A stretch of 64,000 nucleotides of DNA, from contig CAWFAK010000007.1 of the NCBI GenBank assembly GCA_963813715.1, positions 704,001-768,000 of the forward strand, given 5' to 3'. The first letter of the stretch is position 1; each line of letters begins with the position of its first letter. Below, piece after piece: positions 14,335 through 24,873 of this stretch. The DNA comes from an uncultured Planctomycetaceae bacterium (lineage in GTDB: Bacteria > Planctomycetota > Planctomycetia > Planctomycetales > Planctomycetaceae). A program made the translations under genes and the position numbers. The notes beneath the pieces are model-generated. The model ran no database searches, was not told where the DNA came from, and was given only the letters and a program-made list of their open reading frames with translations.

Positions 14335-15960
14335 TCACTTGGAGATTCGGAACAAGTCGTCCGAGGGCGTGTCGTTGAAGTCGACGTACATTCGCGTAGT
14401 CTTCGCCCGATTTCCCGAGACGTCACGGAGAATGACCGTTGGGTACCAGAAGCCGCGCGGCGACTGGTCGAAATCCTTGAATCCAACGTCGGGAGGCTTA
14501 GACGCAGCGGCGATTTGCTCCGCACCTGCCGACGGGTCGCGATAGACGATCTTGACCGCGACACTGCCCATGCTGGGATTCAGCCAGTATGTCGCGTCCA
14601 GTGCAATTGGCTTCCGAATGGTTGGATCCAAAGAAACGTCCACCTTGATTAATTCCTGATTGCCAACCGTTTGATGGTTAACCTCAAAGTGGCGGTCTAG
14701 TGCCCTGAAAGGGAAGGTTGGACGGCAACACAGCTCAGGAACGTTAAGAGTCTGCCCCAGGAAGTCCGCCTGAGAATCCTCTTTCACCGGAAAGATCTGA
14801 AGAGGTCCGTCGCTGGAGACCTTCTCTCCCCATGTAAAAACGCCGATGGTGTGACCATCGCAAATTGCGACGGGGCTAAATCGAAATTGTTTCTTGTTCG
14901 CATGCCAGGCCTTCAGCGCCTCGTTTTGGTCCACGGGCAAAACGAATTGCGCGTCTGCGGGCTTGACGTCGTCTATGCGCCACTTATTACCCCGGCGCAG
15001 CACCCGTTTCGGATCGCACCGACTCAACGGCCGAGGGGTATCGAATCTCGCGGTGACGGACAACGCTGAATAGTCGTCGAAGCCCTCCCGGCCTTCTTGC
15101 AGCGTTTGAGCAATGTCCGGCAATTCACCCGATTCATCGACGTCCCTCGCTTGGACCCCGACTGGAATCCCCAGCGACGATCGGTCCGCCAAGCCCTTGA
15201 TTGGGTAGTCGAAGTAGCAGGTCGTCGTGTGCGACGCGGCTTCAGTGATCGCAAGAGAATACGGCAGTGAAGACCGCTTATCGATCGTGAGAACGAGCGT
15301 GATTGCCCCACGGTCGGCGGGCCGCACGACAATCTGATATTCGTCGCAGGGTTTTCCGTCGATCATTTGGCTTTTCAGACTCCATCGCTCGATCCGCTCG
15401 TCCGGCAACAGCGACGGAGCAGAGGGAGATCGCCGAAATACCGCGGCTAGGTTTGATACGGACGAGAGTTCCTGCGTCAGTCGCGCGTTCCCTGGCCGAA
15501 CGGCACGGTAAAGGATTTTGCGCTTCTCGTCATAACGTAAGAACACATTGTTCGTGTAATCGAAGAGCAAAGCGGTCGTCGATAGCCTGCCTCCGATCAC
15601 GTCCAGACCCGGCGATACCCACAACTCGCCTTTTTCGACGTTGTCTCGCACGATGCGCGCGTGAATGCACGCTTGCGCACGGGCCCTCCGGATCGCAGAC
15701 GCCCAGGCCGGTTCGCTGTTGAAAAACCAAACGGTCCCCAAGACCACTGCCGATAGGCCAACCGCAAAGACTGATGCGAGCATGATTCGATGTTTCGAGC
15801 GCATGCGGAGGGGCTGGACAGCCACGGCCACGCTTAGCAGTCGACTCCGCAAATCTGCGGCGTACTCCGCCGACGGGCCGGACCGCACTCGGCTTTCGGA
15901 AAGCGCCGTCTTCAGCACTTCCATTTCCTCCGCGTCAAATTCGTCGGGCCGAGTGCTCAT
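14335..15960 (-). CDS. Putative anti-sigma factor: single TM with a large periplasmic LolA/RseB-like region
   Basis: Coupled (ATGA-type overlap) to the ECF sigma gene. Short cytoplasmic helix (PSAEYAADLRSRLL), TM, then beta-rich region (IDGKPCDEY..LTIDKRSSLP; YWLNPSMG..GFWYPT..PSDDLF). Confidence 0.65.
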   Translation of the reverse strand: MSTRPDEFDAEEMEVLKTALSESRVRSGPSAEYAADLRSRLLSVAVAVQPLRMRSKHRIMLASVFAVGLSAVVLGTVWFFNSEPAWASAIRRARAQACIHARIVRDNVEKGELWVSPGLDVIGGRLSTTALLFDYTNNVFLRYDEKRKILYRAVRPGNARLTQELSSVSNLAAVFRRSPSAPSLLPDERIERWSLKSQMIDGKPCDEYQIVVRPADRGAITLVLTIDKRSSLPYSLAITEAASHTTTCYFDYPIKGLADRSSLGIPVGVQARDVDESGELPDIAQTLQEGREGFDDYSALSVTARFDTPRPLSRCDPKRVLRRGNKWRIDDVKPADAQFVLPVDQNEALKAWHANKKQFRFSPVAICDGHTIGVFTWGEKVSSDGPLQIFPVKEDSQADFLGQTLNVPELCCRPTFPFRALDRHFEVNHQTVGNQELIKVDVSLDPTIRKPIALDATYWLNPSMGSVAVKIVYRDPSAGAEQIAAASKPPDVGFKDFDQSPRGFWYPTVILRDVSGNRAKTTRMYVDFNDTPSDDLFRISK

Positions 15961-16544
15961 AGGCGTGCACCCCCCTGTTGAGGTGCTGGTGCAAAATAAG
16001 GCCCCAGCAACGTCCGCAAGCGCGTCCGAGCGCGCGATAGCGACGACTCGACGGCTTTAGCCGTTGTTTTCATCGCCGTCGCTATCTCCTGAACCGAACG
16101 ACCATCGACATATTTCTGTCGCAGGACCACCTGGTGAGATTGTGGAATGGCCGTGAACGCCGCCCGCACGAGTTGCAATCGCTCGACACGCTCCATCACC
16201 TCTTGCGGAAGAAGGAGGGCGTCGTCAGCCAGTTCGATCGACTCCGCGTTCTCCGATACAAAGGCGCTCGACAAGCGGCGAAAATGCTGCGCCACTTGCA
16301 ATCTGGCAATGCCAAACAGCCAATCGCGCAACTCGCCTCTCGCAGGATCGAACCCTTTAATGCTGGAAATCGCCTGCAGCCAGACTTCCTGGTTCAGGTC
16401 CTCGCATAACGTCCTGTCGCCGTCCACGAGATGGCTGACGAAGGCGTAGATTTCGTTCAGATGCGCGTCATACAACGCCCTCCACGCTGCTCGATCGCGA
16501 CGTGCGAGCAATTGCAGAAACGCGTCATGCGACGAAGCTGGCAT
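15957..16544 (-). CDS. ECF (sigma-70 family) RNA polymerase sigma factor
   Basis: AWRALYD, EDLNQEVWL, WLFGIAR (region 2); DGRSVQEIA..AVESSLSRARTRL (region 4). Confidence 0.9.
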   Translation of the reverse strand: MPASSHDAFLQLLARRDRAAWRALYDAHLNEIYAFVSHLVDGDRTLCEDLNQEVWLQAISSIKGFDPARGELRDWLFGIARLQVAQHFRRLSSAFVSENAESIELADDALLLPQEVMERVERLQLVRAAFTAIPQSHQVVLRQKYVDGRSVQEIATAMKTTAKAVESSLSRARTRLRTLLGPYFAPAPQQGGARL

Positions 16545-16740
16545 TTGGCTGTCGTACTCGGCTGCTGCTGATCGGTCGACCAGACTCTATTTGCGCGAGA
16601 GCGCGGAATCCTTCGCACAATTTACGAAAAAGACGAAAGTCGGTCGCATCCCGGCTTATCCGTGCAAACCGGCTCCGTCAGGAGACTTCCCACAGGTAGC
16701 TAGGCGTACATGCGGGTAAACACTCACCCGAGGTCTTCTT

Positions 16741-18052
16741 CTAGCTGGGCGCCGGCGATCGTCGGCGACGCCACAAAAGTCCAGTCCCCAGGACGACCAG
16801 TGCCCCGGCATTAAGCAACAGCAAGTGGCGCCAGATGCCACGGCCACCTACTCCGGCAGGAAAGGGCTGTATTTCTCCATTGATAATCGGATTGGCCCGC
16901 GCGATTGCCTCGTCGAGCAAGTGTTCGCCGTGCGGAACGAAATAGGACCTATTGAGAATCAGATCCTGGACGTTAGTGCCGGGGGGGAAGTCGAGCTCGA
17001 AAACGTCATCCGGAACATTGTTGACGTTGATGTTCTCGATCGTAACGGTGTGCACCTCCGTCAGCATCCCCTGCGTATTCGCGGGCTCCAGCGATCCTGC
17101 AAAATCGAGCCGATAACACCGGTGCGGCAGCCAGATGGTGTCACCATATTGGCGCAAATCCTTGTTGGCATAGACGAACGCAAGCACGGGCATGCTGCTG
17201 AGGTTCCGCATTTGAAACCACAGCCGACGCCGCATCGCGAAGCCATTCTCCGTATCGATCCAGATGGTGTCGGCCCCGTTCGTGACCACGTGACACGGAA
17301 AACCGTCGACCTCCTGGAGAGTCGGTAGCACTCGATAGACGGATGGCAAGCTCAGTGCGGTAGGCACGTACCAGGCCGACTCACGTTGTCGAGCTGCGTT
17401 GGCCCCCGTCGGAATTGAAATTGAGTCGAAGTACCACACCAGCCGTGAATCCACCGCGTCAAGTTTCGCTGGATGGATGTGGCCAAGCGAACGGGTTGGC
17501 TCGAAGGCTTTCATTTGCGTGCCATTGAAGGCGTAATCGAACTCCGGCAATGGCCTCGTTCGCCGCTTACTCGCTGAGTTCTCTGCAGTCTTAATCGCAA
17601 ATCGGCCGGGCGTGGTCTCGCGAATATGGGTGAACCGCTTCTCGCCCTTCATCGCGACGCGCGCTTTCGAACGAGAAGTTAGCGGGGACCGCATGCTTTT
17701 GTCGCTTTTGCGAAATCACACGAGCCGTTTCAACCTGCCTCTGTAATGAATATTGGAACGACACTTCGATACTCTCGACGCGGCCCGCCAAGCCATCTGG
17801 CCGTCGTAGAGTTCCTTTAGGGAATGCGTGGCTTTTCTGTTCGCTTGCCGCACGTTTTGCCATTCGAGGTGATCCAGCCCTCGTTGGACTTCTTCGTAAC
17901 TACCGACTTGTCCGGAAAGGCCGACGTATCGCGTCGGCGACTTCCAATCTTGCGCGTGCGGTGACAAACCCGTCCAACATGACCACCAGGACCCCCATGC
18001 CGCCAAGCTTGAGAATCCCCAACCATGCCAATCGTCTCGCCTCGACTCCCAT
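16741..18052 (-). CDS. Exported LolA-like beta-rich protein with C-terminal TM anchor and basic tail (about 3 apparent frameshifts in the 5' part)
   Basis: ATG ~18052 gives a signal-like MGVEARRLAWLGILKLGGMGVLVV. The reading continues through three frames into ORF 16741..17694 (EVDGFPCHVV..IWIDTENGFAMRR..INVNNVPDDVFELDFPPGT..LLLLNAGALVVLGTGLLWRRRR). Confidence 0.6.
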
Positions 18053-18158
18053 CGGCCCGCACTCCTCCAGGTTTCCGATTCGCTTTTTGGCGCACTGACA
18101 GACTTGTTCGCCTTCAACAGCCCGGTTGCAGTATTTCAGCGGACTCGCGAGGGCTTGG

Positions 18159-19373
18159 CTATTTCCGGTCGCGAGACGGTCTCATCCGCTCGTCGGAATT
18201 GCGCGCGACCTCTGCCAGAACGGTCGGGTGATCCGTCAACAAGGCCCGTTGGAGCACGCAGGCGGCGTGCGAATAAGCACAGTAGTCCCTTTGGATAGTC
18301 GTCGAGTCCGATCGCTTGAGCGCATCGATCAAAAACTGGAGGGCGTGCGAAACACAAACGCTCGATGGCCTCAAAGAAACGGGCACGATCTGGATCCACT
18401 CGAGCTGATGTCCGGTAATCCGCACCAGGTCCTCGCCGCGAATCGTCTCGGCGGCTCGGTTGTCCGTGACAGTCGAAACACGGTTCGCCCAAAGAGGACT
18501 CCAGGCGCCGTTGGGCAGCTGCGAGCTTTCGAGCAAGCGACTGGATCGCGACAAGTAGACCTCGCATCGTCGCCGGAGATCCGCCGAGATACTGCGGGAG
18601 GCGTGTCGCAATAGGAAGGCCAGCGTCAATTGCTTGTGAGTTCCTCCACAGGAACCGCTGTCGAGCGGCAGCGCAAGAATGGCCTCAGCCATCGATTCAT
18701 AGGAACAGGTCTCACCGAAGCGATTTTCCCACTGCGGTTCGTCCGGCAAATATCCGCAGAAGGCGACCAGCGACCAACAGACTTCCTGGCTCGCGTCAAA
18801 ACTGCGGCGCGACGCATCGAGGAGTTCGCCGACCGTAAACGAGCCGAAATTGCTCTCAACGGATAAGCCCAAAGGGACACCAATCTCCGCACACGTAGCG
18901 AGGAATTGGTCGACATGATGTTCGTACTCCCAGTGGTCCTGGACATTGGGGGCGGTGCGCTGCCTCACATCCCAGCCATAGGGGGAACGGAAGAACAAAG
19001 GCGGCGACCTGGGAAACGTTCGACGAAAGTCTGCCTGACCGAGCACGCGACCCACTTCGCGCTGCAATTCGAGGTTGGCTGGAAAGGCACCCGCCAGACC
19101 CTCGAAGCGCCAGCGGTGAAAGTAATCCGACGCTCGTAGCGGCTGAGTCACGACGTATTTGGTAATAGCCTCCGCAGCCGAGACCTTCACCTCGGCGGCG
19201 AAAATGGGATTCGGCGAGGGTGGAGCGATTTGCCCAAGTTCTGTCGGGCTCTTGGGAACTCCGGAAGGACCGAGCCACATTTTGACCCCTAGAGTCGCGG
19301 CGACTCCCACGACAGCCATAGCGACAACTAAAGATGCCACCCGGTTAGTGGTCCTCAACCTGTCGGAGATCAC
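18159..19373 (-). CDS. Membrane-anchored putative alpha/alpha-toroid (prenyltransferase/cyclase-like) protein
   Basis: GTG overlaps the upstream stop. N-terminal TM, then motifs EHHVDQFLA, SCGGTH, QLPNGAW (QW-like), TGHQLEW, CAYSHA. Confidence 0.55.
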   Translation of the reverse strand: MISDRLRTTNRVASLVVAMAVVGVAATLGVKMWLGPSGVPKSPTELGQIAPPSPNPIFAAEVKVSAAEAITKYVVTQPLRASDYFHRWRFEGLAGAFPANLELQREVGRVLGQADFRRTFPRSPPLFFRSPYGWDVRQRTAPNVQDHWEYEHHVDQFLATCAEIGVPLGLSVESNFGSFTVGELLDASRRSFDASQEVCWSLVAFCGYLPDEPQWENRFGETCSYESMAEAILALPLDSGSCGGTHKQLTLAFLLRHASRSISADLRRRCEVYLSRSSRLLESSQLPNGAWSPLWANRVSTVTDNRAAETIRGEDLVRITGHQLEWIQIVPVSLRPSSVCVSHALQFLIDALKRSDSTTIQRDYCAYSHAACVLQRALLTDHPTVLAEVARNSDERMRPSRDRK

Positions 19374-20227
19374 GCGCGGTGACCTCCGGGCGCCGGATCC
19401 GCGGGCAGAATGGACACGCGGATTGGGTATGTTAAGACCTCGCCGTCGACCGTAACCCGGACCGGCAACAGAACGTCCTGCCGCTTTTGAGCGACGTTGT
19501 CCTGCGGATTGACTCCCAGCGTGAACGAGCACTCTCGTCGCACATAATTTGACGTTTCGACGGACGGCCCAACGCGGATGTCCTGGACGACGAGTACGGA
19601 TTCCAGTCCGGTCCCGCCCAGTGGCACATCAACCTTTGGCTCGCTCGAAGAGGCCTTGAGAAACAGGGTGCCGACGATCGACGCGGTTCGCGCGACCTTG
19701 GCACGGCCGCCGATCATGTACGTGTAGTTTGGAAAATTGGCGCCGAGTTCGATGGCGTGGACACTGAGCGCTTCCGCCCAGGACCCGCCCTCTGCCTCGA
19801 CGTAAACCCGTGCATCCGCCGGGCCGGCGTGGCGCGGCCTGGACCGCATCATCATATGCACACTGGTCGATGCGCCCGCGACGAGCGTCTCCTGTTCCAA
19901 GCGCGCTTCGGTGCACCGACAAGTCGGCGATCCGAGATGCAACCGAACCGTCGAGTTACCCTGATTTTCGATGCGGAAAAGCCCCTCGGCAGCGCCGTCA
20001 CGCGGCAACACACCAAGATCGGCTTCGGTATTCCACGCAACCAGCCGGAGTGCATCTGGCGATGGTGTTCTCGCGACGATTCTGTCAGCGGACGACGCCG
20101 ATCGTTGAACGGAGCGGCCGACATTCGCCGGCAGAGCCGAGCATCCCAATGTCAGACAGCTGACTAACAGACTGGCGAGCGATTGGCGCGGCGCCGCAAA
20201 AACGCAGGTCGATGGCAAAGCGCCCAA
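19370..20227 (-). CDS. DUF1573-like Ig-fold lipoprotein (start uncertain)
   Basis: Lipobox-like LLVSCLTLGC; DLGVLP..FRIENQGNSTVRL..PTCRCT motif typical of DUF1573. Confidence 0.65.
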   Translation of the reverse strand: MGALPSTCVFAAPRQSLASLLVSCLTLGCSALPANVGRSVQRSASSADRIVARTPSPDALRLVAWNTEADLGVLPRDGAAEGLFRIENQGNSTVRLHLGSPTCRCTEARLEQETLVAGASTSVHMMMRSRPRHAGPADARVYVEAEGGSWAEALSVHAIELGANFPNYTYMIGGRAKVARTASIVGTLFLKASSSEPKVDVPLGGTGLESVLVVQDIRVGPSVETSNYVRRECSFTLGVNPQDNVAQKRQDVLLPVRVTVDGEVLTYPIRVSILPADPAPGGHRA

Positions 20228-20853
20228 CGTGCGAGCGGAAAGCCGCCAATCGACACCGACGCTGCGATGACACACCACAGAGCGACTTCCAACCTGCGAT
20301 GCGAAGACATCTTGCGCGATTCGGGCAAGATCAGATAACCACTCCAACAGCGGACGAATTGACTGCGAGACACCGTTTCGATCGAAGCGGCATAGTTCGG
20401 TTCGATGTAGCGCACTGAACGGTCATCAATCTGCAGCACGAGCAGGAAGTGCCCGATGGCATTGTTGGTTTCGCGACGGGGCAAGACGTGCGCGATTAGT
20501 GGAGTGGCGAAATGATCGAGATCCCGCGGTTTCGCTCGCAAAACCGTTGCCGAAACCCCCAGTGCCGCTAATCCCTCTTGTAGGCCAAGCAAGGAACTCC
20601 CGCCTTTTTCGATCGGAATAGCGGCAACGGCGTCGTCGTAGGTGATTTCGCTACCAAGAAGGCGTGCCAGCATATAACCGCAGGCCACGCCGCAGCTTTG
20701 GGCTTCGCGCCAATGGTGATTATGCGCTGCCCCCCGTGCATCGACCTGACGAGAACCGCCAGTACTCGCCTCTCCGTGAGTTCGAATGAAGGTGATTGCA
20801 CTTGCGACGATTGCAATCAGAGCCCAGCGGCGATGGAAGGTCGTAGAAAGCAT
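20164..20853 (-). CDS. Stand-alone C39-like cysteine peptidase with N-terminal signal and C-terminal TM
   Basis: QSCGVAC (catalytic Cys), GSSLLGL, PLIAH..GHFLLV..VRYIEPN, FVRCWSGYLI. No ABC-transporter domains. Confidence 0.8.
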   Translation of the reverse strand: MLSTTFHRRWALIAIVASAITFIRTHGEASTGGSRQVDARGAAHNHHWREAQSCGVACGYMLARLLGSEITYDDAVAAIPIEKGGSSLLGLQEGLAALGVSATVLRAKPRDLDHFATPLIAHVLPRRETNNAIGHFLLVLQIDDRSVRYIEPNYAASIETVSRSQFVRCWSGYLILPESRKMSSHRRLEVALWCVIAASVSIGGFPLARWALCHRPAFLRRRANRSPVC

Positions 20854-20960
20854 GAGAGCGGCTCGGCGGCTAGGCAGACAGTATTTCTGAGGTCGGCTCT
20901 GGGCAATTCAATAACGCCGTTACCAACCAGCAAGCATGCCACGCGATATGGGGGACCTTC

Positions 20961-21407
20961 TCAAGTCCCACTGCATCCCTGTTGGTCGAGATCAAAAGGC
21001 GCCGGACCGCACTCGACACTTGAGGAATTCAGGCATTGGCAGCAAGGCATGATCACTCCCGTAACCGAGCAAAACGTTTCGGTGCAAGTTGCTTGCGTCG
21101 CCGAGTCACACGCGTCTTGCACCAACGCGCCAGTAAATGTCCCGGATCCGCCATAGCTCGAGGTGGCACCGCACGCATATGAACATAATCCGTCGCAGTC
21201 CGAAGTCGCAGATGTGCAGGTGTCAGTCGCAGAATCCGTGCAAGCGCTATTCGACGTCGATTGATACGAGCCACACTGCCCTCCGCGAATGCTCGCCGCG
21301 GTCGTGGCTGAAACCTCGACGACGTCCCCCGGCAATCGATCCGCTGACGGGAGAATGGCAAGGGCCGCAGATGCGAGGGCAAAGGCAAAGACTGAGACGC
21401 GAGACAT
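20961..21407 (-). CDS. Secreted Cys/Ser/Thr-rich precursor protein with double-glycine-type leader
   Basis: GAGGAG RBS; Sec-like signal MSRVSVFAFALASAALAIL; EVSATTAASIRGG| motif; 105-aa core with 14 Cys. Confidence 0.8.
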   Translation of the reverse strand: MSRVSVFAFALASAALAILPSADRLPGDVVEVSATTAASIRGGQCGSYQSTSNSACTDSATDTCTSATSDCDGLCSYACGATSSYGGSGTFTGALVQDACDSATQATCTETFCSVTGVIMPCCQCLNSSSVECGPAPFDLDQQGCSGT

Positions 21408-21760
21408 TTTTCTACTCCTCCAGAAACCGAAGTTCCTTACGGATCGTCAAATCTTGGAGCACGTAGGCAGTCCACTGACGCGGTAGCCACCGTTCAGCCG
21501 AGCGCAATGGCACGACGTTCGACGGTCGAGGCGTCAACGAAATCTCGGTTGGATCGGAACTCAGCTAATGATCCAGGCGTAGATCGCCCGGAGCATTGGT
21601 GATTCCTATTCCTGCGCAAAGGCCGCGCACGCTTTGCCGGCGCCTTGGACAAGGCTCGGCGGCACGAAGATGCGCTCATCCGAAAGAAGCAGCCCGCGGC
21701 GACGACCAACCAGGGTCGTTCGCGCCATTTCCGTCCAGCCATTGGTCCGGAACTGGGAAC

Positions 21761-21810
21761 ATCCTGATGCGATGATCTCGGAATGTCAAACAAAAACGAC
21801 AAAAAAATCG
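21761..21810 (-). promoter_or_regulatory. Candidate sigma-70 promoter for the precursor operon
   Basis: TTGACA (21789-21784)-N17-CAGGAT (21766-21761), preceded by T-tracts resembling an UP element. Confidence 0.4.
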
Positions 21811-21919
21811 GGGAAGCTGGAAAGTTATCGAGCAATCATTTTCCACCCACCATCACGAGCGACGACCAACACTCCACTGGATTCCACGAGATGCCAATTG
21901 TTCGGAGAGCGTCTCCAAT

Positions 21920-22189
21920 CTACTGATCACCCGGATGAGTTGACCGCGCAACAACATCGACGATGTCGCCGATGGTGCGCAAACCGATCGCCTGTTCGTC
22001 CGAGATCTGCATCCGCCACCGGTTCTCCAGCTCGAACCGCAACTCGAGAAGATCCAAAGACGCCAGGCCAACGTCCTCGATGATGTGTGATCCTTCCGTG
22101 AGATCAGTGAGCTTGGCTCGACCGTTGGAGGCGAGAGCTAACGCCGGCTTCAGTTGCTCGATGATCCGACATCGTTCGTCTTCGCCCAT
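21920..22189 (-). CDS. Acyl carrier protein
   Basis: Small acidic protein with EDVGLASLDLLELRFELE..ISDEQA..LRTIGDIVD (phosphopantetheine Ser in LASLD). Confidence 0.85.
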   Translation of the reverse strand: MGEDERCRIIEQLKPALALASNGRAKLTDLTEGSHIIEDVGLASLDLLELRFELENRWRMQISDEQAIGLRTIGDIVDVVARSTHPGDQ

Positions 22190-22343
22190 TGATGCAAATC
22201 CAGTCACAGATTAAGTTCCTGCCCGCGCGGTCGGGAACTCGTTCGAATGAGCCCGGTAGTATTCAAATCCTACCCCGCGCATAATTCAACGACCTCGCCT
22301 CGCTTGAAACTCGCCCCATCGTGGGACACGGCCACTCCTCGCC

Positions 22344-23768
22344 ATGCCGTTCAATTCCCTGGTTTTCCTCCTGTTCTTCCTGATCGTGGCACTCGTGCAC
22401 TCCCTGCCGCTGCCGGTGATCGTCCGCAAGCTTAACTTACTGATCGCGAGCTACGTGTTCTACGCGGCCTGGGACGTGCGCTATCCCCTGCTGTTGGCCT
22501 TCTCCACGCTGGTGAACTTTGGTGCCGCCGCTCTCATTCAAAATTGCGAAGGAAAGACTCAGACACGGCGCACGGTGCTGTGGATCAGCGTGCTTTTAAA
22601 CTTCGGTCTGCTGGCCTGCTTTAAGTATGGCAATGAGTTTCTCTCGGCCTGGGGACTGCTGGCAGACCGACTGCGAATCGCTGAACCTCCGCAGGTTACG
22701 ATTCTGCTGCCAATCGGACTGTCGTTCTTCACGTTTCAGGCCATGTCCTACACGATTGACGTCTATCGCCGCCAATTCCGACCGACGTCGTTGTTGGACC
22801 TGGCGATCTTTGGCTCGTTCTTCCCCGTGCTCCTGGCCGGGCCGATTTTGCGAGCCGGGCAGTTCATTCCGCAGTGCACCCCGCCGCGACGGGCCACGGG
22901 TCGTGAGTTCTGCTGGGGACTCTCGCTGCTCACCCTGGGCCTGTTCTTGAAGGTCACGCTAGCCGATCATTTGCTTGCGCCGATCGCACAACAGGTGTAC
23001 GACCTCAGTCTGCGACCCGACACGCTCAGCTCCTGGACAGGCACACTGGTCTTCGCGGCTCAGGACTATTGCGACTTCGCGGGCTATTCGACGTGTGCGA
23101 TGGGCATTGGCCTATGCCTTGGCTTCGTGCTGCCGGCCAACTTCCGCTCCCCATTGGCATCGATCGGCTTTCGCGATGTATGGCAGCGCTGGCATATCAC
23201 GCTCGTCGTCTGGATGCGCGACTATGTCTTCAATCCTCTAGGCGGCGTCTTCAAAGGATATGCCCGCGCCGCACTCAATGTGATAATCGTGATGCTCCTC
23301 ATCGGAGTTTGGCACGGCGCGACGGCCACCTTTTTGATCTTTGGCTTTCTGCACGGATCGTTCTTGATCGGCGAGACATTGCTGCAACGTACGCGGCTGC
23401 GTCGACTGCCTGTCTGGGCAACGCCGTTCGGGAAGTTCGTCCTCTGGGCGGTCACTATCATGCTGTGCCTGGTCGCGTTCGTCTTCTATCGGGCGGCCAA
23501 CCTCGAGCAGGCTCGTTGGATATTGGCGTCCATGGCCGGCTTCCCCAGCGGTGTCGGGAGCTTCGGCCTGACGGATCACGATCTGTTGATCGGACTCGTC
23601 ACTGTCGAGTGTCTGATCGTCGCCCACTGGGTCGTGCGCAACCAGAATCTCGAAACGGCCGTCGCACGCATCCCTTGGTGGAGCGTTTCGTTCGGACTCG
23701 CGGCGATGTTGGTGGCCATCACACTGAGTTCGGGCGAATCGCAGACCTTTTTGTATTTTCAGTTCTGA
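22344..23768 (+). CDS. MBOAT family O-acyltransferase (AlgI/DltB-like)
   Basis: MPFNSLVFLLFF, ASYVFYAAWD, LPIGLSFFTFQAMSYTIDVYR, YCDFAGYS, WQRWHITL, IGVWHGA, FLYFQF. Confidence 0.92.
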   Translation: MPFNSLVFLLFFLIVALVHSLPLPVIVRKLNLLIASYVFYAAWDVRYPLLLAFSTLVNFGAAALIQNCEGKTQTRRTVLWISVLLNFGLLACFKYGNEFLSAWGLLADRLRIAEPPQVTILLPIGLSFFTFQAMSYTIDVYRRQFRPTSLLDLAIFGSFFPVLLAGPILRAGQFIPQCTPPRRATGREFCWGLSLLTLGLFLKVTLADHLLAPIAQQVYDLSLRPDTLSSWTGTLVFAAQDYCDFAGYSTCAMGIGLCLGFVLPANFRSPLASIGFRDVWQRWHITLVVWMRDYVFNPLGGVFKGYARAALNVIIVMLLIGVWHGATATFLIFGFLHGSFLIGETLLQRTRLRRLPVWATPFGKFVLWAVTIMLCLVAFVFYRAANLEQARWILASMAGFPSGVGSFGLTDHDLLIGLVTVECLIVAHWVVRNQNLETAVARIPWWSVSFGLAAMLVAITLSSGESQTFLYFQF

Positions 23769-23810
23769 GAGTTTTCCGCTGCTCCAAACTGTCATGACCT
23801 CAACGGACTC

Positions 23811-24873
23811 ATGAGTTCATCCGCAACGACGCCCGGGACAACTCCGACCACGCCGTCCGGCACGGCGCGCGAGGACACGTCGCGACGGTTGCCGGAAGCG
23901 CGGGTCTACCTCTTGGGTCTCGTACTGTTCGTCGGGATGATCGGTGCGCTGGAGGTATACTGGCGGGGACGAGCGTTCGAACCCAACGTTCCGGATTCCC
24001 CGGACCTGTGGGCCTATCACTGGTCCCGAGTCGTCGGCAACGATCCCAATCTGATCGTCGCCATCGGCACGTCGCGCATTCGCACCGCTGTGCGGCCGGA
24101 CGTGATTCAGGAGCGTCTCCCTTCCCAACGACTAATTCAACTGGGAGTGAACGGGCCCTCCGGATCGCTCGGTCTACTGGCCGAAATCAGTCGCATTCCG
24201 CATTTCCGCGGTCTCGTTCTCTGCGACTTGCTTCCGCCCCTGATGGCACCCGAGCAAGGGCGTGAACAGGTCGCCATGGCTCGTAGGCCGAATACCACGG
24301 CACACACTTTGAATACCTACTTGCGTTCGTTGCTGTGTGACCGACTGGTCGTCCTCAACTCGGCATTATCCGTTCGCAATTGGTTTGCACAGCGCGACTC
24401 GTTTCGTCCGGAGAGTGTCGGTCCGCGCCTGCGGGTCCACGCGGATCGGACTCTCGAGATTAGTTATCCCACGGACGAAGCGCTCGAAGACGATTCGTGA
24501 GAACCGTTTTCGCGACTACGCCGGCCGCTACTCAAAGGCCCGTCGTTACAAGAACATGGACGAATTCCGGGAAGCGATCCGCGACGTGGCCGACTCGGTG
24601 GCCCGCATAAAACAAAACGGCGGCAAGGTCGTGTTCTTGCGGTTACCAGCAGCCGGCGCCCGACTGCAACTCGAAGAAGCGACCTATCCTTCTGCGCTCT
24701 ATTTCGGGGTGTTGGCAGAAACAACTTCCGCGCCCTGGATCGACTTTCGCGAGCTCTCGCACGAAGACGATCTCGACTGCCCCGATGAGTCACATCTATC
24801 CGCGGACTCCGCCCCGGTCTTTACAAGTCGCCTCGTCGAAAGGCTGCGCCGCGGCTCGCTCCTGGGCCAATAG
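23811..24873 (+). CDS. Membrane-anchored SGNH/DltD-AlgJ-like protein (apparent frameshift near 24490)
   Basis: N-terminal TM, IGTSR (block I), and in the shifted frame GGKVVFLRLP and CPDESHL (DxxH). Directly follows the MBOAT gene. Confidence 0.7.

What the first reader, a model, noticed from the sequence alone, without database searches (positions are those of the whole stretch)
20164..20853. Stand-alone C39 peptidase with apparent extracytoplasmic topology
Seen: N-terminal signal-like segment (RRWALIAIVASAITFI), catalytic QSCG and GHF motifs, Glu at the usual Asp position (YIEPN), a C-terminal TM, and no ABC domains. Inference: a membrane-tethered periplasmic leader peptidase, the opposite topology to PCAT C39 domains.
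Basis: partly seen in the sequence, partly recalled or inferred. Interest (0 to 1): 0.7.

Follow-up and report, generated by a model that had tools for sequence, protein, structure and literature searches.

The report
Membrane-tethered periplasmic C39 leader peptidase
The C39 peptidase is real, but it is the front half of a longer membrane protein split by a one-base assembly error, and it probably sits outside the cytoplasm where it trims a double-glycine pro-piece off the secreted cysteine-rich protein encoded next door.

Summary
The 229-aa ORF (20164-20853, minus strand) is a genuine Peptidase_C39 domain: Pfam 66.5 bits against a cut-off of 22, with Cys54 and His135 aligned to the PCAT1 catalytic residues and a predicted fold matching PCAT1, ComA and LahT150.

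It is not stand-alone. Contigs from 4 of 4 independent soil metagenomes carry one extra base behind 20185. That base joins the ORF to the downstream DUF1573 ORF as one 494-aa protein: signal/anchor, C39, TM, Arg-rich loop, TM ending in a lipobox-like Cys, DUF1573, Ig-like domain. Three short-read relatives have the intact fusion.

Sequence evidence favours an extracytoplasmic C39 domain:
- charge bias in 60 of 62 family members;
- an even number of TMs before an invariant lipobox Cys;
- one relative with a direct C39-DUF1573 fusion.

No PCAT was found in the genome.

The upstream gene (20961-21407) encodes a signal peptide, a leader with invariant GG and hydrophobic residues at -4/-7/-12, and a 14-Cys domain. 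Similar precursors lie beside related C39 genes in 10 of 12 loci from other genera, where about 0.2 would be expected by chance.

The likely mechanism is Sec export followed by periplasmic GG cleavage. Periplasmic FapD is a precedent, so this is a new variant. No cleavage or topology experiment exists.

The parts
19370..20853 (-). Full gene as it exists in the population: a 494-aa protein with signal/anchor, C39, TM-A, Arg-rich loop, TM-B with lipobox-like Cys, DUF1573 and a second beta-sandwich. In this assembly it is split into two overlapping ORFs (20164-20853 and 19370-20347).
   Evidence: 4 of 4 metagenome runs have one extra base behind 20185. With it the frame is open over 1485 nt. Intact 495-507-aa frames occur in L027, L028 and L029.
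20164..20853 (-). The flagged 229-aa ORF, which is the N-terminal part. Its last ~20 residues and its stop codon are out of frame.
20776..20829 (-). N-terminal hydrophobic segment (res 9-26) preceded by Arg8-Arg9: either a Sec signal peptide or a signal anchor.
   Evidence: Kyte-Doolittle scan. 49 of 68 short family members have such a segment in their first 45 residues.
20314..20706 (-). Peptidase_C39 domain (res 50-180). Key codons: Trp48 at 20710-20712, Cys54 at 20692-20694, His135 at 20449-20451, Glu151 at 20401-20403.
   Evidence: Pfam, PDB alignment. C54 and H135 are invariant in 70 sequences; W48 and Asp at position 151 are present in >=90%. Fold match to PCAT1, ComA and LahT150.
20230..20292 (-). 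TM-A (res 188-208), followed by a loop of net charge +5.
   Evidence: AF2 of the G062 orthologue gives helices 188-218 and 226-240.
20185..20186 (.). Site of the 1-nt deletion in this assembly (frameshift).
   Evidence: table 4: 'put in behind 20185: C' in X1, X2, X3 and X4.
20141..20182 (-). TM-B ending in the lipobox-like LTLGC. The Cys codon is at 20141-20143.
   Evidence: The Cys is invariant in 23 of 23 fusion proteins and the Gly before it is present in >=90%. Linkers of 20 fusions were read.
19760..20032 (-). DUF1573 Ig-like domain, followed by a second beta-sandwich that runs to the stop at 19370.
   Evidence: PF07610 E 1e-07. AF2 strands 271-373 and 378-482 in the orthologue. Foldseek gives hydin/ASH-type Ig and 2qsv.
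20961..21407 (-). Candidate substrate gene, 148 aa: signal-like N-terminus, pro-leader VVEVSATTAASIRGG (GG codons at 21279-21284), then a 105-aa domain with 14 Cys.
18159..19373 (-). 'F404', a 404-aa protein with an N-terminal TM helix and an (alpha/alpha)6-toroid domain. Its GTG start overlaps the TGA stop of the C39-DUF1573 gene (GTGA).
16741..18117 (-). Conserved fourth gene of the genus-level cluster. It is one ~440-aa frame in relatives but is spread over three frames here. No family match.
14335..16544 (-). ECF sigma factor (15957-16544) and a putative anti-sigma protein (14335-15960), syntenic in all relatives of the genus.

Best explanation
The flagged ORF is the protease domain of a ~494-aa inner-membrane protein, split in this assembly by a 1-nt deletion. 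Its layout is an N-terminal signal or anchor, a C39 papain-like domain, a two-helix membrane hairpin whose second helix ends in a lipobox-like Cys, then DUF1573 and a second Ig-like domain. Both soluble parts face the periplasm (inferred). The gene upstream encodes a pro-protein with a Sec-type signal sequence, a ~20-residue pro-leader ending in an invariant Gly-Gly, and a 14-Cys domain. The proposed pathway is Sec export of the precursor, then cleavage behind the Gly-Gly by the membrane-tethered C39 domain (Cys54/His135/Glu151), which releases the disulfide-rich product. The leader would be recognised as PCAT leaders are, through hydrophobic residues at -4, -7 and -12. No ABC transporter takes part. 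The co-conserved (alpha/alpha)6-toroid membrane protein F404 is an accessory of unknown role. Shown here: domain identity, the fused gene, the conserved gene neighbourhood and the leader motif. Inferred: topology, catalysis, the cleavage site and the fate of the lipobox.
For: Domain identity:
- Pfam 66.5 bits against cut-off 22.
- C54, H135 and E151 align with the PCAT1 catalytic residues.
- C and H are invariant in 70 family sequences.
- The AF2 model of the intact orthologue matches the PCAT1 peptidase domain (TMt 0.75, rmsd 1.8), ComA (0.81) and LahT150 (0.77).

Fused gene:
- 4 of 4 metagenome runs carry the extra base, giving a 494-aa open frame.
- 3 of 3 relatives from many-contig MAGs are intact.
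- 20 of 30 long homologues are C39+DUF1573, and none of the 34 scanned has an ABC domain.

Topology:
- 60 of 62 short homologues with a C-terminal TM have a net-positive tail, mean +3.2 against +0.7 before the TM.
- All 20 fusion linkers read show two hydrophobic segments, a basic loop and a Cys; that Cys is invariant in 23 of 23.
- L016 fuses C39 to DUF1573 with no TM between them.

Substrate:
- GG, Q, C and G are invariant in 21 family members, as are V at -12 and A at -7, and I/V sits at -4.
- The -4/-7/-12 rule for double-Gly leaders is stated in PMC10885120 (passages read).
- Signal+GG+Cys-rich ORFs lie beside the C39 gene in the window and 4 of 4 orthologous loci, and in 8 of 12 (filter 1) or 9 of 12 (filter 2) loci from other genera of the family. 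The union is 10 of 12, and the two misses are 3.5- and 4.6-kb contigs.
- The background for each filter is 14 hits in 7.49 Mb, so about 0.2 is expected in those 110 kb.
- The canonical pattern [VLIMA]x3[EQ][ALIVM]x2[ILVM]xG[GAQ] occurs in 9 of 11 of the family-f1 precursors, against 276 hits in 9.8 million background residues.

No PCAT:
- Only 2 PF03412 matches in the genome, in open frames of 247 and 289 aa.
- 6 ABC_membrane matches, none on the window's contig. The 724-aa one has no C39 domain.
Against: - No experiment exists: cleavage, localisation and expression are untested.
- Complex prediction could not be run.
- The usual oxyanion Gln six residues before the Cys is Trp48 here, and Trp in >=90% of the subfamily. 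The third catalytic residue is Glu here, not Asp. Activity could therefore be altered or lost.
- In this particular protein the charge bias is weak: +3 before TM-A against +5 after it.
- The window's own precursor has Thr, not Glu/Gln, at -8, and only 13 of 21 family members fit the full pattern.
- The leader pattern and the two precursor filters were written after seeing examples, so they are partly circular.
- Outside this bacterial family the link is weak. In 40 short-C39 loci sampled across the phylum, filter 1 hit 1 and filter 2 hit 4 (0.6 expected). F404 was found in 0 of 40. Most of those loci have other architectures.
- Related genomes are not independent samples.
- The genome is 82.6% complete, so a PCAT could lie in the missing part.
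Confidence: 0.55

Rival explanations
1. The split is real in this strain. A 229-aa stand-alone C39-TM protein and a separately translated DUF1573 lipoprotein starting at TTG 20218 or 20227 work as two polypeptides.
For: TTG codons at 20227 and 20218 in the DUF1573 frame would give an N-terminus that looks like a lipoprotein signal peptide. P0003 is a 218-aa form ending just after TM-A. The invariant internal lipobox suggests that even the fused form may be cut into two parts.
Against: 4 of 4 near-identical (>=99%) metagenome contigs from four studies have the extra base. The same window shows further split genes: 23811-24873 in two frames and 16741-18117 in three, each a single frame in relatives. 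G166, another few-contig genome of low marker completeness, is broken at a different site. P0002 is a version of this very gene shifted at yet another site.
Confidence: 0.07
2. The domain is a non-catalytic C39-like binding module, like the CLD of HlyB-type transporters. It holds or chaperones the GG pro-proteins in the periplasm rather than cutting them.
For: Gln is replaced by Trp at the oxyanion position and Asp by Glu at the third position. Clearly inactive paralogues exist in the family: the second L010 copy has Asp for Cys and Tyr for His, and the L008 fusion has Gly for Cys.
Against: Cys54 and His135 are invariant across 70 diverged sequences averaging 23% column identity. They are also invariant in 23 fusion proteins, which is hard to explain without catalysis. 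CLDs lack the Cys (recalled; the abstract of PMC11026475 in the listing only names the domain).
Confidence: 0.12
3. The peptidase is extracytoplasmic and active but has another substrate, for example its own linker or DUF1573 part, F404, or envelope proteins. The GG motif of the neighbouring protein would then be structural.
For: The substrate of the periplasmic C39 FapD is still unclear and lacks a canonical leader (PMC5557850). Across the phylum most short C39 genes have no such neighbour.
Against: The leader carries the -4/-7/-12 hydrophobic spacing of true double-Gly leaders. The leader is conserved while the mature parts of different genera are unrelated in sequence. The neighbourhood enrichment is about 45-fold over background.
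Confidence: 0.15
4. The C39 domain is cytoplasmic, as in PCATs. The N-terminal hydrophobic stretch is not a translocation signal, and the enzyme cuts the precursor before export.
For: The N-terminal h-region is short (14-18 residues). For this one protein the charge difference across TM-A is small. No topology predictor or experiment was available.
Against: This would place DUF1573 and the lipobox Cys in the cytoplasm too, because the number of TMs between them and C39 is even or zero. Tails are positive in 60 of 62 members. The substrates carry Sec-type signals and 5-16 Cys. No exporter is encoded nearby.
Confidence: 0.06

Closest known systems
C39 peptidase domain of PCAT/AMS transporters (PCAT1, ComA, LahT)
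   Same: Same Pfam family and fold. The catalytic Cys and His are aligned. The presumed substrates end their leader in GG or GA with hydrophobic residues at -4, -7 and -12 (rule from PMC10885120).
   Different: There is no ABC membrane or ATPase domain in the protein, the window, or fused to any C39 in the genome. Predicted orientation is periplasmic rather than cytoplasmic. Trp replaces the Gln six residues before the Cys, and Glu replaces Asp. The substrates carry an extra Sec-type signal sequence ahead of the leader.
FapD, the periplasmic C39 peptidase of the Pseudomonas Fap amyloid system (PMC5557850)
   Same: It has a Sec signal, acts in the periplasm, has no ABC domain, and needs its active-site Cys (passages read).
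   Different: FapD is soluble, sits in a fap operon with the FapF barrel and amyloid subunits, and has no known canonical GG-leader substrate. Here the enzyme is membrane-tethered and fused to DUF1573. It is paired with a canonical-looking GG leader on a Cys-rich protein and with F404. No fap-like genes are nearby. FapD itself was not compared by sequence here.
C39-like domains (CLD) of RTX type 1 secretion ABC transporters (HlyB)
   Same: Same fold family, and a proposed role in handling a substrate before or during secretion.
   Different: CLDs lack the catalytic Cys and are cytoplasmic (recalled). Here Cys and His are invariant.
DUF1573 (PF07610) Ig-like proteins of Planctomycetota and Bacteroidota
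   Same: The C-terminal half matches the family and has the Ig-like fold, including similarity to the P. gingivalis protein 2qsv.
   Different: It is joined to a protease through a membrane hairpin with an internal lipobox-like Cys. The function of DUF1573 is unknown.

Membership tests
Peptidase C39 (Pfam PF03412 / MEROPS C39) | Score above the curated Pfam gathering threshold | tested here: met
   66.5 bits against 22, E 2.7e-18, residues 50-180.
Peptidase C39 (Pfam PF03412 / MEROPS C39) | Catalytic Cys and His at the aligned positions | tested here: met
   C54 and H135 align to the PCAT1 Cys and His. Both are invariant in 70 of 70 family sequences.
Peptidase C39 (Pfam PF03412 / MEROPS C39) | Asp as the third catalytic residue | tested here: not met
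   Glu151 (YIEPN) aligns to the Asp of PCAT1. Glu is kept in the genus; Asp is present in >=90% of the wider subfamily. This is a conservative change.
Peptidase C39 (Pfam PF03412 / MEROPS C39) | Oxyanion-hole Gln six residues before the Cys (position recalled from ComA/PCAT1 work; a 'Q-C-H motif' is named in the abstract of PMC13642728, listing) | tested here: not met
   Trp48 occupies that position, and Trp is present in >=90% of 70 subfamily sequences. The genome's second C39 (L003 8633-9424) has Gln there.
Peptidase C39 (Pfam PF03412 / MEROPS C39) | Papain-like C39 fold | tested here: met
   AF2 model of the G062 orthologue (C39 part pLDDT mostly 85-96). Foldseek: 7n87 TMt 0.75 rmsd 1.8; 5xe8 0.81; 6mpz 0.77.
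Peptidase C39 (Pfam PF03412 / MEROPS C39) | Cleavage behind a Gly-Gly type motif | not testable with these tools
   Only the candidate site was found.
PCAT / AMS bifunctional ABC transporter | C39 domain fused to an ABC transmembrane domain and an ATPase | tested here: not met
   No ABC domains in the protein or in 34 homologues. The two C39 frames of the genome are 247 and 289 aa. The 724-aa ABC exporter has no C39.
PCAT / AMS bifunctional ABC transporter | Cytoplasmic peptidase domain | tested here: inconclusive
   Sequence markers point to the periplasm. No topology experiment or dedicated predictor was available.
FapD-type periplasmic C39 | Sec signal and no ABC domain | tested here: met
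   N-terminal RR plus hydrophobic segment 9-26; no ABC domain.
FapD-type periplasmic C39 | Encoded in a fap operon (FapA-F) and soluble | tested here: not met
   The neighbours are the Cys-rich protein, F404, an unknown gene and an ECF sigma, with no Fap families among the Pfam hits. The protein has two further TM helices.
DUF1573 (PF07610) | Score above the Pfam gathering threshold | tested here: met
   32.3 bits against 26.1 for the 19370-20347 ORF. 20 of 30 long homologues also match.
Bacterial lipoprotein (Lgt/Lsp substrate) | Lipobox [LVI][ASTVI][GAS]C after a basic n-region and an h-region | tested here: inconclusive
   LTLGC follows an Arg-rich loop and a hydrophobic helix, and the Cys is invariant in 23 of 23. 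However, the signal is internal, not N-terminal. The lipobox consensus is recalled, and lipidation is untestable here.

The most novel reading that the evidence does not exclude
Planctomycetes of this family run a 'PCAT-less' double-glycine pathway. Disulfide-rich pro-proteins cross the membrane by Sec. Their GG pro-leader is then removed in the periplasm by a membrane-tethered C39 protease that uses Trp in place of the oxyanion Gln. The protease itself is made as a polyprotein, and its invariant internal lipobox lets Lgt/Lsp split it into a membrane protease and a DUF1573 lipoprotein. The (alpha/alpha)6-toroid protein F404 is an obligatory third component.
Probability: 0.3. Interest if true: 0.75.

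Novelty: new variant of a known kind. Interest (0 to 1): 0.6.

Why it matters
Double-glycine leaders and C39 peptidases are textbook partners of ABC exporters, with cleavage coupled to transport on the cytoplasmic side. This locus gives a sequence-defined, testable case in which the same recognition logic appears to work after Sec export, on the other side of the membrane, on proteins about 100 residues long and rich in disulfides.

The enzyme family is large. 1297 50%-identity clusters score E<=1e-3 and 299 score E<=1e-10, and the best 150 are almost all short, double-C39 or DUF1573-fused forms. It is essentially unstudied.

If the model is confirmed, it would:
- add a maturation route for secreted peptides in Planctomycetota;
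- supply a natural soluble-side GG protease with an unusual active site (Trp/Cys/His/Glu-or-Asp);
- give DUF1573 and F404 a first functional context.

There is also a practical lesson: this assembly carries indels that split genes, so 'stand-alone' domains in it need checking.

Tried and rejected
It never ran, so there is no binding test.
- **The search for related loci with the wide alignment A2**: Rerun with the five close sequences, A3.
- **Substrate family**: no Pfam or NCBIfam match for the Cys-rich protein even at E<=10. The ESM Atlas gave no usable hit, and its own model has pLDDT 0.31.
- **F404**: no Pfam match. Foldseek's best E was 4.4e-3. VIA-align shows only a generic (alpha/alpha)6 toroid (GH105, squalene cyclase, thioester domains; Z 13-17.6). 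A LanC-like role was considered because the precursors are rich in Cys, Ser and Thr. It was dropped: no LanC chain appeared among the listed matches, and no dehydratase is encoded nearby.
- **Promoter/terminator scan of 16500-22400**: 0 promoter-like sites, and terminator-like sites near the shuffled expectation. Uninformative.
- **Phylum-wide generalisation**: precursor filters hit 1 of 40 and 4 of 40 loci, and F404 hit 0 of 40. The cassette cannot be claimed for short C39 proteins in general.
- **DNA alignment with G062 and G166** could not place the indel, because the linker is too diverged. The metagenome contigs did place it.
- **Earlier notes of this scan**: nothing near the locus.
- **Literature**: searches for 'periplasmic / stand-alone / standalone / secreted / extracellular / membrane-anchored C39' found only the FapD paper. 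Searches combining Planctomycetes, C39, DUF1573, double-glycine and cysteine-rich found no description of this system. These cover only the held open-access library.
Full report
**Observation**

The ORF lies on the minus strand of 20164-20853 and encodes 229 aa.
- RRWALIAIVASAITFI at residues 8-23;
- QSCG at 52-55;
- GHF at 134-136;
- YIEPN at 149-153;
- a hydrophobic stretch at 188-208.

Pfam gives Peptidase_C39 at E 2.7e-18, 66.5 bits against a cut-off of 22, over residues 50-180. NCBIfam matches only the N-terminal 130 positions of the 708-position bacteriocin ABC model. phmmer against the PDB finds five PCAT1 sequences. It aligns C54, H135 and E151 with the Cys, His and Asp of PCAT1.

**The ORF is not a whole gene**

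The closest database relatives already hinted at this. P0004 and P0005 continue in frame from the C39 C-terminus, through two hydrophobic segments, into a DUF1573 domain. In the window the DUF1573 ORF (19370-20347; PF07610, 32.3 bits against 26.1) overlaps the C39 ORF by 184 nt in another frame.

- Three related loci from many-contig MAGs (L027, L028, L029) carry one intact frame of 495-507 aa.
- The window and G166 are both few-contig assemblies with low marker completeness (82.6% and 87%). Each is broken, but at different places.
- Twenty soil or peat metagenome runs from 16 studies hold the stretch. In the four that were laid (four studies, contigs >=99% alike), all four have an extra C behind + strand 20185.
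- With that base the region 19370-20853 is a single 494-aa frame.
- The window has other genes split the same way. 23811-24873 is in two frames and 16741-18117 in three, and each is a single frame in relatives.
- P0002 is this same gene shifted at yet another site.

The split is therefore best read as an assembly indel.

**Anatomy of the full protein**

- Hydrophobic segments lie at residues 9-26, 188-208 and 225-243, and the loop between the last two has net charge +5.
- The third segment ends in LTLGC.
- An AF2 model of the intact G062 orthologue (23-sequence alignment, mean pLDDT 79) shows an N-terminal helix, a confident C39 domain, two long helices (188-218 and 226-240) and two beta-sandwich domains.
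- Foldseek matches the C39 part to the PCAT1 peptidase domain (7n87, TMt 0.75, rmsd 1.8), ComA (5xe8, 0.81) and LahT150 (6mpz, 0.77). It matches the C-terminal part to hydin/ASH-type Ig domains and to the P. gingivalis protein 2qsv.

**The family**

An exhaustive search of 1.84 billion representatives gives 1297 proteins at E<=1e-3 and 299 at E<=1e-10. The best 150 are almost all ~200 aa, ~400-450 aa with two C39 stretches, or 450-500 aa.

- Of 30 long proteins scanned, 20 are C39+DUF1573. None of the 34 scanned has ABC domains.
- In 70 aligned short members C54 and H135 are invariant.
- Trp at the position six residues before the Cys, and Asp at position 151, are present in >=90%. The window's genus has Glu at 151.

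This is a distinct C39 subfamily in which Trp replaces the usual oxyanion Gln.

**Topology (inferred)**

1. 62 of 68 short members have a C-terminal hydrophobic segment. 60 of those 62 have a net-positive tail behind it, with mean +3.2 against +0.7 in the 15 residues before. 49 have an N-terminal hydrophobic segment.
2. In all 20 fusion linkers read, C39 is followed by a TM, a short basic loop and a second TM ending in a lipobox-like Cys. That Cys is invariant in 23 of 23 aligned fusions. A lipobox Cys has to face outward, so the loop is cytoplasmic and C39 lies outside.
3. L016 joins C39 directly to DUF1573 with no TM, so the two domains share a compartment.
4. The presumed substrates carry Sec-type signals and many Cys.

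For this one protein the charge contrast is modest, +3 against +5. No experiment or dedicated predictor was available.

**The neighbour as substrate**

The gene upstream (20961-21407) encodes a signal-like N-terminus, then VVEVSATTAASIRGG, then 105 residues with 14 Cys.

- 23 homologues were found, all unannotated.
- In 21 aligned members G42, G43, Q44, C45, G46, V32 (-12), A37 (-7) and 14 Cys are invariant, and -4 is Ile or Val.
- Hydrophobic residues at -4, -7 and -12 are the stated recognition rule for double-Gly leaders (PMC10885120, passages read).

A script looked for ORFs with a signal-like start, a GG two residues after a hydrophobic residue, and a Cys-rich rest.
- It found exactly one ORF in the 64-kb window, this gene.
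- It found one in each of 4 orthologous loci.
- It found 9 ORFs in 8 of 12 loci around more distant C39 genes of other genera.
- The whole genome gives 14 hits in 7.49 Mb, so about 0.2 would be expected in those 110 kb.

A second filter (G[GA] followed within three residues by Cys) hit 9 of 12, with the same background of 14. The union is 10 of 12, and the two misses are contigs of 3.5 and 4.6 kb. One filter-2 hit, in L033, is the C39 gene itself.

The mature parts differ between genera, but the leaders share V/L(-12)...E/Q(-8)-A/L(-7)..I/L/V(-4).G-G/A/Q. That pattern occurs in 9 of 11 of the family-f1 precursors and 13 of 21 members of the window's family. The background is 276 hits in 9.8 million residues. 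The pattern was written after seeing the sequences, so that figure is partly circular.

**Third component**

The next gene (18159-19373) starts at a GTG overlapping the stop codon of the fusion gene.

- A profile built from five orthologues finds it beside C39 genes in 7 of 12 distant family loci.
- It has an N-terminal TM helix and invariant His, Cys, Glu and Trp positions.
- It has an (alpha/alpha)6-toroid fold: AF2 pLDDT 78.5 and pTM 0.75, VIA-align Z up to 17.6, and Foldseek only weak.
- Its role is unknown.

**Limits**

Across the phylum 96 of 401 sampled genomes have a C39 match, many of PCAT length. In 40 short-frame loci, filter 1 hit 1 and filter 2 hit 4, and F404 hit none. Most of those loci have other layouts, such as a multi-TM N-terminus with C-terminal C39, lipoprotein-type C39, or PCAT fragments. 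A relaxed look found further GG or GA precursors beside same-layout genes in L030, L039, L104, L105, L073 and L072. The cassette can be claimed for this bacterial family and a few others, not for short C39 proteins in general.

**PCAT search**

The genome has only two PF03412 matches, in frames of 247 and 289 aa. The second is another signal-bearing short C39, this one with the canonical Gln and Asp. Six ABC_membrane matches exist, none on the window's contig, and the 724-aa one has no C39 domain. The window itself has no ABC genes among 35 ORFs scanned. Because the genome is 82.6% complete, a PCAT is 'not found' rather than 'absent'.

**Comparison with known systems**

The system resembles PCAT peptidase domains in fold, in the Cys/His pair and in leader logic. 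It fails the defining ABC fusion, and probably the cytoplasmic location. FapD shows that a Sec-exported periplasmic C39 can be active (C38A abolishes FapC secretion). However, FapD's substrate is unclear and its genetic context is different (PMC5557850). Four literature searches found no description of this membrane-tethered, DUF1573-fused subfamily or of signal-plus-GG precursors.

**Verdict**

What is new is a conserved three-gene cassette that makes periplasmic GG processing directly testable.

Noticed in passing
L003:8633-9424 (G000:C5, + strand): The genome's second short C39 protein is 263 aa. It has an N-terminal signal-like segment and the canonical Gln six residues before the Cys, plus His and Asp. 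It sits directly after a 538-aa ORF (L003 6938-8554) that may be an outer-membrane protein. It has no GG/Cys-rich neighbour and no F404.
   Followed up: partly
window 23811-24873 (+) and 16741-18117 (-): Two more genes look frame-split in this assembly. 23811-24500 and 24337-24873 form one ~404-aa frame in G062. 16741-17694, 17591-17863 and 17716-18117 form one ~440-aa frame in relatives. This fits frequent indel errors.
   Followed up: partly
window 20489 (- strand): Database protein P0002 (173 aa, listed as the window's own) equals residues 1-121 of the C39 ORF and then continues in another frame of the same DNA. A differently shifted version of this gene is therefore on record.
   Followed up: yes
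window 21485: 2 of 4 metagenome runs have 'GC' inserted behind 21485, in the intergenic stretch upstream of the Cys-rich gene. This is either a strain difference or another assembly error.
   Followed up: no
window 21920-24873: A divergently placed cluster holds an acyl-carrier-like protein (21920-22207, -), a DltB/AlgI-type MBOAT (22344-23768, +) and an unknown ~400-aa protein. It is syntenic with the C39 cassette in all relatives of the genus. A link to the cassette is untested.
   Followed up: no
L011:805-2001 (-), L010:827-2055 (-), L008:1979-3439 (+): Variants within the family. L011 has two C39-TM units in one protein. L010 has an active copy followed by a copy lacking Cys and His. L008 has an inactive C39 (Gly for Cys) fused through a TM to an F404 domain.
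   Followed up: partly
L081, L093, L098, L091 (phylum sample): Other Planctomycetota carry short C39 proteins that start with a lipoprotein-type signal (for example LAGC), or that have four or five N-terminal TM helices before a C-terminal C39. Extracytoplasmic or membrane-embedded C39 layouts appear common in the phylum.
   Followed up: no
G000:C17:302464-302805 (-) and G000:C12:280963-281442 (-): Two further small ORFs elsewhere in the genome have a signal-like start, a GG, and very Cys-rich tails (14 and 18 Cys). No C39 gene was noted beside them.
   Followed up: no
window 19300-21500: Near-identical DNA is held by 20 soil or peat metagenome runs from 16 studies, so the organism or close strains are widespread in soils.
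   Followed up: partly
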